Below the pieces are notes generated by a model. That model ran no database searches and was not told the DNA's origin. It saw only the letters and a program-made list of their open reading frames with translations. Shown here piece after piece: positions 33,522 to 35,015 of a DNA stretch of 64,000 nt. The stretch comes from Escherichia coli (GTDB taxonomy: Bacteria; Pseudomonadota; Gammaproteobacteria; Enterobacterales; Enterobacteriaceae), in assembly GCF_003334765.1 (NCBI RefSeq), contig NZ_QOWT01000001.1; one strand, given 5' to 3'. The stretch's first letter is position 1. Every line of letters starts with the position of its first letter. A program made the translations under genes and the position numbers.

Positions 33522-35015
33522 ATGGCACAAGTCATTAATACAAACAGCCTGTCGCTGTTGACCCAGAATAACCTGAATAAATCTCAGTCTTCTCTGAGCT
33601 CCGCCATTGAACGTCTCTCTTCTAGCCTGCGTATTAACAGTGCTAAAGATGACGCAGCAGGTCAGGCGATTGCTAACCGTTTTACGGCAAATATTAAAGG
33701 TCTGACTCAGGCTTCCCGTAACGCGAATGATGGTATTTCTGTTGCGCAGACCACTGAAGGTGCGCTGAATGAAATTAACAACAACCTGCAGCGTATTCGT
33801 GAACTTTCTGTTCAGGCAACTAACGGTACTAACTCTGACAGTGACCTGACCTCCATCCAGTCCGAAATCCAGCAACGTCTGAGTGAAATTGACCGTGTTT
33901 CTGGTCAGACTCAGTTTAACGGCGTTAAAGTGCTGGCTTCTGATCAGGATATGACTATTCAGGTTGGTGCAAACGACGGCGAAACAATTACTATTAAACT
34001 GCAGGAAATTAATTCCGACACACTGGGATTATCTGGTTTTGGTATTAAAGATCCTACTAAATTAAAAGCCGCAACAGCTGAAACAACCTATTTTGGATCG
34101 ACAGTTAAGCTTGCTGACGCTAATACACTTGATGCAGATATTACAGCTACAGTTAAAGGCACTACGACTCCGGGCAAACGTGACGGTAATATTATGTCTG
34201 ATGCTAACGGTAAGTTGTACGTTAAAGTTGCCGGTTCAGATAAATCCCCTGAAAATGGTTATTATGAAGTTACTGTGGAGGATGATCCGACATCTCCTGA
34301 TGCAGGTAAGCTGAAGCTGGGGGCTCTAGCGGGTACCCAGCCTCAAGCAGGTAATTTAAAGGAAGTCACAACGGTGAAAGGGAAGGGGGCTATTGATGTT
34401 CAGTTGGGTACTGATACCGCAACCGCTTCTATCACAGGTGCAAAACTCTTTAAGTTAGAAGACGCTAATGGCAAAGATACTGGTTCATTTGCGTTGATTG
34501 GTGATGACGGTAAACAGTATGCAGCGAATGTTGATCAGAAAACAGGTGCAGTTTCCGTTAAAACAATGTCTTACACTGATGCTGACGGTGTCAAACACGA
34601 CAATGTTAAAGTTGAACTGGGTGGAAGCGATGGCAAAACCGAAGTTGTAACTGCAACCGATGGCAAAACTTACAGTGTTAGTGATTTACAAGGTAAGAGC
34701 CTGAAAACTGATTCTATTGCAGCAATTTCTACGCAGAAAACAGAAGATCCTTTGGCTGCTATCGATAAAGCACTGTCTCAGGTTGACTCGTTGCGTTCTA
34801 ACCTAGGTGCAATTCAAAACCGTTTCGACTCTGCCATCACCAACCTTGGCAACACCGTAAACAACCTGTCTTCTGCCCGTAGCCGTATCGAAGATGCTGA
34901 CTACGCGACCGAAGTGTCTAACATGTCTCGTGCGCAGATCCTGCAACAAGCAGGTACTTCTGTTCTGGCACAGGCTAACCAGACCACGCAGAACGTACTG
35001 TCTCTGCTGCGTTAA
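33522..35015 (+). CDS. fliC: flagellin FliC (H-antigen; variable central domain)
   Basis: 497 aa ORF [32 protein letters not shown]... ...[15 protein letters not shown]. Confidence 0.93.
   Translation: [497 protein letters not shown]

What the first reader, a model, noticed from the sequence alone, without database searches (positions are those of the whole stretch)
33522..35015. fliC allele whose conserved termini look Salmonella-like rather than K-12-like
The N-terminal ([34 protein letters not shown]...[42 protein letters not shown]) and C-terminal (...[45 protein letters not shown]) segments resemble, from memory, Salmonella phase-1 flagellin more than K-12 H48 flagellin (SLITQNNINKNQSALSSS..., ...QVPQQVLSLLQG). 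The rest of the window is E. coli-like, so this would indicate lateral replacement of the flagellin gene, a known route to H-antigen diversity. My recollection of reference sequences is approximate.
Basis: partly seen in the sequence, partly recalled or inferred. Interest (0 to 1): 0.45.

Follow-up and report, generated by a model that had tools for sequence, protein, structure and literature searches.

The report
H2 flagellin in Citrobacter-like fliD–fliC cassette
This is the ordinary E. coli H2 flagellin gene; it sits with its neighbouring cap gene fliD in a 3.2-kb block whose closest relatives are in Citrobacter (and, less closely, Salmonella) rather than K-12, a block carried by about one in six E. 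coli genomes.

Summary
The 497-aa FliC at 33522-35015 has termini closer to Salmonella than to K-12: 84.9% vs 80.8% over the N-terminal 172 aa, and 84.6% vs 70.3% over the C-terminal 91 aa. It is not a strain-specific oddity. The identical gene is in an O80:H2 strain and about 113 of 5,426 complete E. coli genomes, so it is the standard H2 allele.

The divergent block is larger than fliC. It runs from about 31817 to 35075 and holds the first 8 codons of fliS, all of fliD, the promoter region, fliC and its terminator. The flanks are 97-99% identical to K-12.

This 'S-type' fliD (>=99% identical) occurs in 863 genomes. All seven loci examined share the same left junction, and the fliD is linked to at least four fliC middle regions. 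The rest of E. coli carries a K-12-type (3,189 genomes) or an H4-linked (1,326 genomes) fliD.

The closest relatives are Citrobacter freundii-complex alleles, not Salmonella. FliD is 93-95% aa identical, and one Citrobacter flagellin matches H2 over its full length (termini 97-98%, middle 72%). Synonymous divergence is about as high as for the flanking housekeeping genes, so there was no recent transfer from any sampled donor.

Verdict: a known allele, and a real, old mosaic.

The parts
31065..31430 (-). fliT, K-12-type (outside the replaced block); FliT is the export chaperone of FliD
   Evidence: 97.8% nt to K-12; NCBIfam NF007836 143.8 bits; only 33-40% aa to Citrobacter/Salmonella FliT but 72% to Superficieibacter.
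31430..31840 (-). fliS, chimeric: codons 1-8 (31817-31840, MYTASGSK) are S-type, the rest is K-12-type; it contains the left recombination junction at 31816/31817
   Evidence: Alignment of the window, six S-type E. coli loci and K-12. K-12 reads MYAAKGTQ and the window reads MYTASGSK. All S-type loci examined share the junction.
31817..35075 (.). The whole S-type (Citrobacter/Salmonella-lineage) block embedded in a K-12-like backbone, about 3.26 kb
   Evidence: blastn vs K-12 gives 97.4% up to 31816 and 98.7% from 35037, with only 72-76% patches between. Base-level junctions are shown.
31855..33267 (-). fliD (filament cap), S-type, 470 aa, true start MASFTS at 33267
   Evidence: NCBIfam NF005955 664 bits. 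It scores 701 bits against Salmonella FliD 9gnz and 307 bits against 5h5v. It is 50% aa identical to K-12 FliD and 93-95% to Citrobacter freundii-complex alleles. It is >=99% nt identical in 863 of 5,426 E. coli genomes. GC3 is 43% vs 55-63% in the flanks.
33307..33332 (-). sigma-28 (FliA) promoter-like motif facing fliD: TAAACTTT-N11-GCCGATA
   Evidence: Pattern search found 4 matches in the window vs 0.16 expected. It lies in the S-type intergenic region, which has no nucleotide match to K-12 and is 82-87% identical to Citrobacter. Function is inferred from the consensus only.
33426..33451 (+). sigma-28 (FliA) promoter-like motif facing fliC: TAAAGTTC-N11-GCCGATA
   Evidence: It ends 70 nt upstream of the fliC ATG. 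Function is inferred from the consensus only.
33522..35015 (+). fliC, H2 allele, 497 aa: S-type conserved ends (about 33522-33850 and 34800-35015) and an H2-specific middle region (about 33850-34800)
   Evidence: 100% identical to fliC of O80:H2 strain 2013C-4991 and of NCTC9100. The middle region is 20-26% aa identical to the other S-type E. coli flagellins and 72% aa to the Citrobacter L054 flagellin.
35016..35075 (+). Short Citrobacter-type fliC 3'UTR with an intrinsic terminator (hairpin 35036-35052, then a T-run to 35058) and the right junction; it lacks the ~150-nt REP/FliX-containing stretch of K-12
   Evidence: Terminator scan. The alignment with Citrobacter loci shows an identical hairpin, CCCCGCT-CCGGCGGGG. 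From GTAACCCCC (about 35076) onward the sequence is E. coli-type.
35181..35900 (+). fliA (sigma-28), K-12-type, outside the block
   Evidence: 99.0% nt to K-12.

Best explanation
The gene is the standard E. coli H2 flagellin. It lies in a 3.26-kb fliD-fliC cassette ('S-type') of Citrobacter/Salmonella-lineage ancestry. I infer that the cassette entered an E. coli chromosome already carrying K-12-lineage fliC-fliDST by homologous recombination. One crossover is in the conserved 5' part of fliS (31816/31817) and the other is just past the fliC terminator (about 35059-35076). The cassette brings its own cap protein, its own FliA-dependent promoter region for both genes, and its own short 3'UTR and terminator. 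It works with the resident K-type chaperones FliS and FliT and the resident sigma factor FliA.

A single ancestral cassette most likely spread within E. coli and then acquired different fliC middle regions (H2, H8 and others). This gives one of three cap-plus-flagellin haplotype classes in the species.

Shown: the mosaic structure, the junctions, the census, the linkage counts and the phylogenetic placement. Inferred: the direction of transfer (into E. coli from a Citrobacter-freundii-like allele pool), the single origin, and promoter and terminator function.
For: Identity as H2: fliC is 100% identical in O80:H2 strain 2013C-4991.

Mosaic: flanks are 97.4% and 98.7% identical to K-12, and the block between has only 72-76% patches. 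Junctions are resolved to the base.

fliD is included: FliD is 50% aa identical to K-12, scores 701 bits against Salmonella FliD, and is 85% aa identical to C. portucalensis.

Single origin: S-type fliD is >=99% identical in 863 genomes. By comparison, K-type ranges 97.7-100% and the flanks differ by 1-3%. The left junction is identical in all 7 S-type loci examined, which carry 4-5 different fliC middle regions.

Linkage: 863 genomes have an S-type fliC 5' end (>=88.7%) and 4,514 sit at 76-79%, with nothing between. The same number, 863, have S-type fliD.

Census: 3,189 + 1,326 + 863 = 5,378 of 5,426 genomes.

Placement: in a FliD tree the E. coli S-type nests within a Citrobacter freundii-complex clade, sister to L054/L056 at 93-95% aa. 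K-12-type and H4-type group with Superficieibacter.

Citrobacter counterpart: L054 has a full-length H2-like flagellin (N-terminus 97%, middle 72%, C-terminus 98% aa) and the same short 3'UTR and terminator.

Composition: fliD GC3 is 43% vs 55-63% in the flanks.

Other Escherichia: no species representative matched the S-type FliD peptide patterns in the GTDB scan.

Regulation: sigma-28 motifs face both genes.
Against: Synonymous divergence between the E. coli cassette and its closest Citrobacter relative (pS 0.51 for fliD, 0.58 for fliC) falls within the range of the flanking housekeeping genes (0.52-0.77). No recent donor is therefore identified. An allele retained in the Escherichia lineage since its split from Citrobacter would look similar.

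The S lineage, not the K lineage, is what Salmonella, Citrobacter and E. fergusonii carry. The K-type could therefore be the older import, and the S-type could in principle be a relic.

The FliD tree disagrees with the species tree in several places (E. fergusonii groups with C. amalonaticus; Salmonella has 76% and 82-85% alleles). This weakens any inference about direction.

The equality 863 = 863 compares counts, not a genome-by-genome match.

The tree is neighbour-joining without support values.
Confidence: 0.75

Rival explanations
1. Ancestral polymorphism. The S-type fliD-fliC is the original Escherichia allele, inherited vertically since the split from Citrobacter and Salmonella. The K-12-lineage fliC-fliDST is the import. 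The window's arrangement arose by recombination within E. coli between the two haplotypes.
For: Synonymous divergence of S-type fliD and fliC from Citrobacter is about equal to that of the flanking housekeeping genes. All close genera, and E. fergusonii, carry S-lineage caps. K-lineage genes have a close relative only in Superficieibacter: FliD 80%, FliT 72%, FliC C-terminus 97% aa.
Against: S-type fliD is nearly invariant (>=99%) in 863 genomes, while K-type fliD and the flanks vary by 1-3%. E. coli S-type nests inside Citrobacter freundii-complex alleles rather than next to E. fergusonii, which is only 71% aa identical. fliS (from codon 9) and fliT are K-type in every E. coli locus examined. 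The junction is identical in all S-type loci. GC3 is atypically low for E. coli.
Confidence: 0.2
2. Direct, recent transfer of fliC from Salmonella enterica into this strain.
For: The FliC termini and FliD are clearly more Salmonella-like than K-12-like.
Against: Citrobacter alleles are much closer than any Salmonella allele: FliD 93-95% vs 76-85% aa, and fliD 85.5% vs 71.7% nt. Synonymous sites are near saturation. The allele is shared, with identical junctions, by hundreds of unrelated E. coli.
Confidence: 0.02
3. Artefact: an assembly chimera or contamination in the window.
For: None. A public 'Collinsella' MAG contig (L002) does show that E. coli fliD DNA can contaminate other assemblies.
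Against: The same block with the same junctions is present in complete, independently assembled genomes, including NCTC9100, which is 100% identical over 30901-36000.
Confidence: 0.01

Closest known systems
E. coli H2 flagellin (fliC-H2), as in O80:H2, O103:H2 and O45:H2 strains
   Same: 100% nucleotide identity with fliC of strain 2013C-4991, which PMC8537712 describes as O80:H2. The allele is in about 113 complete genomes.
   Different: Nothing. This is that allele. The O103:H2 and O45:H2 examples are from my own knowledge and were not checked.
[quoted passage not shown] From memory, Wang et al. 2003 (J Bacteriol 185:2936) also grouped fliC conserved regions.
   Same: There is a bimodal split of fliC conserved ends within E. 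coli: 863 genomes at >=88.7% and 4,514 at 76-79% identity to the window's 5' end.
   Different: That paper does not mention fliD at all (0 occurrences). Here the split extends to the cap gene, the promoter region and the 3'UTR. I could not verify which of their clusters contains H2, and Wang et al. 2003 is not in the held library.
Salmonella enterica FliC/FljB and FliD (PDB 6jy0, 1ucu, 9gnz)
   Same: The domain architecture is the same: D0/D1 helices, Flagellin_D3 and FLIC_barrel. The termini are 85% aa identical. FliD scores 701 bits and aligns end to end.
   Different: Salmonella is not the nearest relative. Typical Salmonella FliD is 76% aa identical and some alleles reach 82-85%, against 93-95% for Citrobacter freundii-complex alleles.
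Citrobacter freundii-complex fliD-fliC alleles (L054 from SRR21655561; L056 from ERZ28595910)
   Same: Synteny is the same. FliD is 93-95% aa identical. The L054 flagellin matches over its full length, including the hypervariable middle (72% aa). The short 3'UTR and terminator hairpin are the same. fliD GC3 is low in both.
   Different: Nucleotide identity is only about 85% and synonymous sites are near saturation. Those genomes carry S-type fliS and fliT (135 and 122-123 aa), whereas the window keeps K-type fliS and fliT.
O-antigen (rfb) and other surface-antigen cassette replacement by flanking homologous recombination in E. coli (established knowledge)
   Same: A highly divergent antigen-encoding block lies between conserved flanks and is distributed across unrelated clones.
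   Different: This block is much smaller (3.3 kb). It includes a structural assembly factor (the cap) together with the antigen.

Membership tests
E. coli H2 flagellin allele | fliC sequence identical or nearly identical to that of a strain serotyped or genotyped as H2 | tested here: met
   100% over 1,494 nt with strain 2013C-4991, called O80:H2 in PMC8537712. It is also 100% identical to NCTC9100; from memory that strain is an H2 reference, which I did not verify.
E. coli H2 flagellin allele | Agglutination with H2 antiserum | not testable with these tools
   This is a serological test.
FliC/FljB family flagellin | Flagellin_N and Flagellin_C helical domains flanking a variable middle region; score above the curated NCBIfam cut-off | tested here: met
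   Pfam PF00669 (5-140) and PF00700 (411-496). NCBIfam NF005294 scores 530.7 bits vs cut-off 387, and NF005953 scores 619.1 vs 619.
FliC/FljB family flagellin | Location at the fliC locus, divergent from fliDST and upstream of fliA | tested here: met
   The gene order is amyA-fliT-fliS-fliD | fliC-fliA-fliZ-tcyJ.
Salmonella-derived flagellin (recent transfer from Salmonella) | The nearest relatives of the block are Salmonella genes, with divergence well below the genome average | tested here: not met
   Citrobacter alleles are closer. pS of 0.51-0.58 is within the range of the housekeeping flanks.
Segment replaced by homologous recombination (mosaic locus) | Abrupt change of identity to a reference genome at defined junctions lying in conserved sequence | tested here: met
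   Identity is 97-99% in the flanks, drops to 72-76% or unalignable, then returns to 97-99%. Junctions are at 31816/31817 and about 35059-35076.
Segment replaced by homologous recombination (mosaic locus) | Phylogenetic incongruence between the block and its flanks | tested here: met
   FliD nests in a Citrobacter freundii-complex clade while the flanks are E. coli. The tree is neighbour-joining and has no bootstrap values.
Segment replaced by homologous recombination (mosaic locus) | An identified donor lineage with near-identical sequence | tested here: not met
   The best non-E. coli FliD among 5.8 billion proteins is 93-95% aa, and about 85.5% nt on the two contigs read. No GTDB species representative exceeds 85% aa.
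FliD filament cap | FliD_N and FliD_C domains; equivalog score above cut-off | tested here: met
   NCBIfam NF005955 scores 664.2 bits vs cut-off 387. Relatives carry Pfam PF02465 and PF07195.

The most novel reading that the evidence does not exclude
The cap gene fliD and the flagellin ends may be inherited as one co-adapted module that circulates as a shared, old allele pool among Escherichia, Citrobacter and Salmonella. In that case an E. coli H type would imply not only a different antigen but also a different cap (about 50% aa divergent), a different promoter region, and loss of the K-12-type FliX sRNA. The apparently perfect linkage (863 vs 863 of 5,426 genomes) would reflect selection for cap-filament compatibility rather than mere lack of homology for recombination. 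The existence of a Citrobacter counterpart of the H2 hypervariable region (72% aa) would mean H-antigen forms are older than the genera that carry them.
Probability: 0.3. Interest if true: 0.45.

Novelty: already known. Interest (0 to 1): 0.22.

Why it matters
For the finding as posed, little. The gene is the well-known H2 flagellin, and a division of E. coli flagellins into two major sequence groups is published.

The follow-up adds three modestly useful points that I did not find in the accessible literature:
- The cap gene fliD, the class-3 promoter region and the 3'UTR travel with the flagellin ends. E. coli therefore has three cap-plus-flagellin haplotype classes (about 59%, 24% and 16% of complete genomes).
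- S-type strains pair a Citrobacter/Salmonella-like cap and filament with K-type FliS and FliT chaperones.
- The S-type 3'UTR lacks most of the sequence from which K-12 makes the FliX sRNA. Flagellar post-transcriptional control described in K-12 may therefore not apply to H2, H8 and related strains, which include important STEC/EHEC lineages.

It also cautions against treating K-12 FliD structures and stoichiometry as representative of E. coli.

Tried and rejected
(1) Recent Salmonella donor: rejected, because Citrobacter alleles are closer and synonymous sites are near saturation.

(2) A second layer of mosaicism between fliD and fliC within S-type strains. This was suggested by fliD being >=99% identical while the fliC 5' 519 nt are only about 89-91% identical. 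It was rejected because the sliding-window alignment shows the first ~300 nt of fliC are mostly 96-100% identical (90% in one 100-nt window for two of the loci). The drop is simply the onset of the H-type-specific middle region at about 33850.

(3) Literature on fliD/fliC co-variation in E. coli. Three full-text searches and a reading of PMC7018530 and PMC4753304 found nothing on fliD. Wang et al. 2003 (PMC154406) is not held, so my recollection of its grouping of conserved regions is unverified.

(4) An Rfam family for FliX: none exists. Rfam reports only an ES036 hit in the K-12 3'UTR and nothing in the window's.

(5) Using dS to date the transfer: inconclusive, because synonymous sites are close to saturation (amyA pS is 0.77).

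(6) K-type vs Superficieibacter as evidence of recent exchange: rejected, because pS is 0.69-0.74, the same as or above the flanks.

(7) Naming the H types of the other S-type loci (L045-L048): not possible from the records. Only O111:H8 is labelled.
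Full report
OBSERVATION.

Pfam finds Flagellin_N (5-140), Flagellin_D3 (196-286), FLIC_barrel (348-392) and Flagellin_C (411-496). NCBIfam places it in the FliC/FljB family. The gene order is amyA(-) fliT(-) fliS(-) fliD(-) | fliC(+) fliA(+) fliZ(+) tcyJ(+) dcyD(+), as in K-12.

I compared it with sequences returned by the tools rather than recalled ones.
- N-terminal 172 aa: 84.9% identical to Salmonella FljB (PDB 6jy0) and 80.8% to K-12 FliC.
- C-terminal 91 aa: 84.6% and 70.3%.

THE BLOCK IS LARGER THAN fliC.

blastn against K-12 (NC_000913, 1,990,000-2,012,000) gives 97.4% identity for window 26883-31816 and 98.7% for 35037-46970. 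Between them there are only patches of 72-76%.

The cap gene fliD (31855-33267, minus strand, 470 aa) is only 50% aa identical to K-12 FliD. It scores 701 bits against Salmonella FliD (9gnz) and 307 bits against the next PDB family (5h5v). The fliD-fliC intergenic region has no nucleotide match to K-12.

Base-level alignment puts the left junction at 31816/31817, inside fliS. FliS is therefore chimeric: codons 1-8 read MYTASGSK, where K-12 has MYAAKGTQ, and the rest is 98.7% K-12-like.

On the right, the block includes a short 3'UTR and a terminator hairpin identical to that of Citrobacter (CCCCGCT-CCGGCGGGG followed by a T-run). E. coli-type sequence resumes at about 35076. K-12 instead has about 150 extra nucleotides with REP-like palindromes between the stop codon and the terminator.

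IT IS THE STANDARD H2 ALLELE.

The 1,494-nt gene is 100% identical in many complete genomes and covers >=80% of the query in 113 of 5,426. One of them, 2013C-4991, is described as an O80:H2 EHEC in PMC8537712. NCTC9100 is identical over the whole 30901-36000 stretch. Assembly artefact is excluded.

CENSUS IN E. COLI.

| fliD type | Genomes | Identity range |
|---|---|---|
| S-type (the window's) | 863 of 5,426 | >=99% |
| K-12-type | 3,189 | 97.7-100% |
| H4-linked type (79% aa to K-12 FliD, 49% to the window's) | 1,326 | about 97.6-100% |

Together these make 5,378 genomes. That essentially equals the 5,376 genomes with any fliC 5' match.

Identity of the fliC 5' 519 nt to the window is bimodal. 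863 genomes are at >=88.7% and 4,514 at 76-79%, with nothing between. This is the same number as carry S-type fliD. It implies tight linkage of cap type and flagellin-end type, although I compared counts rather than genome lists.

Seven S-type loci (L043-L049: H2, O111:H8 and others) share the same left junction and an almost identical fliD, intergenic region and first ~300 nt of fliC. They diverge only from about 33850 to about 34800. Their middle regions fall into at least four forms:
- H2;
- a group of three related forms that are 68-70% identical to each other, which includes H8;
- a 524-aa form about 20% identical to all the others.

The apparent 10% difference in the 'conserved' 5' end is just the onset of the H-specific region, not a second mosaic layer.

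RELATIVES OUTSIDE E. COLI.

A scan of one genome per GTDB species with S-type FliD peptides found these identities:
- Citrobacter: 75-85% aa;
- Salmonella diarizonae: 76%;
- Atlantibacter, Buttiauxella, Franconibacter and others: 59-71%;
- no Escherichia representative. One 99% contig in a 'Collinsella' MAG is evidently E. coli contamination.

The identity gradient for S-type FliD parallels that of the housekeeping AmyA (94% / 87% / 83-86%).

K-12-type proteins behave differently. They resemble only Superficieibacter (FliD 80%, FliT 72%, FliS 85%, FliC C-terminus 97% aa). Against every other genus they reach 49-55% (FliD), 33-40% (FliT) and 62-66% (FliS).

A search of 5.8 billion proteins found unnamed FliD sequences at 93-94%. 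Named hits were C. tructae and C. freundii at 86%, some Salmonella at 82-85%, typical Salmonella at 76% and E. fergusonii at 71-72%.

The contigs encoding the 93-94% proteins (L054, L056) are fully syntenic and 93-94% nt identical overall to C. portucalensis. They are therefore Citrobacter freundii-complex genomes.

L054 encodes a full-length counterpart of H2 flagellin, with 97% (N-terminus), 72% (middle) and 98% (C-terminus) aa identity. This sits uneasily with the statement in PMC7018530 that no E. coli hypervariable form has significant similarity to flagellins of other species.

In a neighbour-joining FliD tree the E. coli S-type is nested in the C. freundii-complex clade. K-12-type and H4-type form a separate deep clade with Superficieibacter. 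E. fergusonii groups with C. amalonaticus.

Within the C. freundii complex the same region is also a divergent island. Between L054 and L003, fliD is 80% identical while fliS is 98% and fliA 99%.

S-type fliD has low GC3 in both hosts: 43% in E. coli against flanks of 55-63%, and 47% in L054 against 60-63%.

AGE.

The proportion of synonymous differences between the window and L054 is 0.51 (fliD) and 0.58 (fliC). For the flanking genes it is 0.52 (tcyJ), 0.55 (fliA), 0.61 (dcyD), 0.63 (fliZ) and 0.77 (amyA).

The cassette is thus about as diverged from its best Citrobacter relative as the housekeeping genes are. No recent donor has been sampled, and saturation limits resolution. K-type genes against Superficieibacter are likewise saturated.

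HOW IT MOST LIKELY CAME ABOUT AND WORKS.

I favour a two-layer history, with a confidence of about 0.75 for the second step.
1. A K-lineage fliC-fliDST became established early in E. coli. K-type fliS and fliT are present in every E. coli locus examined.
2. Later, a 3.26-kb fliD-fliC cassette from a Citrobacter-freundii-like allele pool replaced the resident fliD-fliC by homologous recombination. The crossovers lie in the conserved start of fliS and just beyond the fliC terminator.

A single origin is supported by the invariant junction and the >=99% identity of S-type fliD, compared with 1-3% variation in the flanks and in K-type fliD. Different fliC middle regions were then swapped in.

The alternative is that the S-type is an ancestral Escherichia allele. 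The divergence data and the S-lineage caps of neighbouring genera keep it alive. The low diversity, the nesting within Citrobacter alleles, the 71% identity to E. fergusonii and the anomalous GC3 disfavour it.

Functionally, the cassette carries sigma-28 promoter motifs for both genes: 33307-33332 (-) and 33426-33451 (+). The pattern has 4 matches in the window against 0.16 expected. It also carries its own terminator. The resident FliA, which is 94% identical across these genera, can therefore drive it; this is inference.

Its cap and filament are exported with K-type FliS and FliT, which are 62-66% and 33-40% identical to the S-lineage chaperones. Motility of H2 and H8 strains (established knowledge) implies that this works.

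COMPARISON WITH WHAT IS KNOWN.

H2 is a classical H type. [quoted passage not shown] From memory, Wang et al. 2003 grouped fliC conserved regions, but that paper is not in the held library. The finding as posed is therefore already known.

I did not find any description of fliD, the promoter region and the 3'UTR being inherited together with the flagellin ends, of the three-class census, or of the Citrobacter H2 counterpart. These are incremental rather than surprising.

SIDE POINT.

In K-12 the fliC 3'UTR yields the ~200-nt sRNA FliX, whose short form includes a REP element and which reduces flagellar number and fliC mRNA (PMC10578931). The window and all S-type loci lack about 150 nt of that region. 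A K-12-type FliX is therefore probably not made. This is inference and was not tested.

VERDICT.

- Observation: confirmed.
- Interpretation: partly supported. The mosaic is real and old, the exchanged unit is fliD plus fliC, and the nearest relatives are in Citrobacter rather than Salmonella.
- Novelty: already known (H2).
- Interest: about 0.22.

Noticed in passing
window 35016-35075; K-12 locus L001 11913-12107: K-12 has about 150 nt with REP-like palindromes between the fliC stop and the terminator. This stretch is annotated as the FliX sRNA, and Rfam ES036 hits L001 12005-12046. The window and all S-type E. coli loci instead have the short Citrobacter-type 3'UTR, so a K-12-type FliX sRNA is probably not produced in H2/H8-class strains.
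   Followed up: partly
L051 2838-4253 (E. coli AR_0058) and 1,326 other genomes: There is a third E. coli cap-gene class, linked to the 349-aa H4 flagellin. Its FliD is 471 aa, 79% aa identical to K-12 FliD, 49% to the window's and 80% to Superficieibacter FliD. The three classes together account for 5,378 of 5,426 complete genomes.
   Followed up: partly
L054 8237-9745 (Logan SRR21655561 contig, Citrobacter freundii complex): This contig has a full-length counterpart of E. coli H2 flagellin, including the hypervariable middle (72% aa; termini 97-98%). This is at odds with the published statement (PMC7018530) that no E. coli hypervariable form resembles flagellins of other species.
   Followed up: partly
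L034, L035 (Superficieibacter) vs L001 (K-12): The K-12-lineage FliD, FliS, FliT and FliC termini have close relatives only in Superficieibacter (80%, 85%, 72% and 91-97% aa). Against Salmonella, Citrobacter and the other genera fetched, FliD is 49-55% and FliT 33-40%. The K-12 type is thus itself the aberrant lineage within the family.
   Followed up: partly
proteins P0072-P0114 (E. fergusonii FliD): E. fergusonii FliD is 71-72% identical to the window's S-type. It groups with C. amalonaticus (86% aa) and not with any E. coli cap type. Salmonella enterica also has several FliD classes (76% and 82-85% to the window). Cap-gene trees do not follow species trees in this family.
   Followed up: partly
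L002 (JAIJJM010000335.1, 'MAG: Collinsella sp.'): A 3.5-kb contig of a Collinsella (Actinobacteria) MAG carries E. coli S-type fliD (99% aa, 99.6% nt) and an S-type fliC start. This is almost certainly E. coli contamination of that MAG.
   Followed up: no
L054 vs L003 (Citrobacter freundii complex): The fliD-fliC pair is a divergent island in Citrobacter too: fliD is 80% nt identical and the fliC 5' end 85%, while the adjacent fliS is 98% and fliA 99%. S-type fliD has low GC3 in both hosts (43% in E. coli, 47% in Citrobacter, against flanks of 55-63%).
   Followed up: partly
window ~24000-26883: The stretch to the left of 26883 does not align with the K-12 yedL-yedN region (L001 20260-22001), although the flanking genes are collinear. 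ORFs of 170-265 aa are present at 23871-25910.
   Followed up: no
window 58859-58884 (+) and 63445-63470 (+): Two further sigma-28 promoter-like motifs (TAAA-N15-GCCGATA) lie far from fliC. They are presumably other flagellar or chemotaxis promoters. The second overlaps the C0465 sRNA match on the opposite strand (63378-63455).
   Followed up: no
window 2667-2756 (-), 11093-11179 (+), 44853-45152 (+): Rfam matches above the gathering score are RseX, DsrA and three tRNAs, the last corresponding to glyW-cysT-leuZ of K-12. This is consistent with the K-12-like backbone.
   Followed up: no
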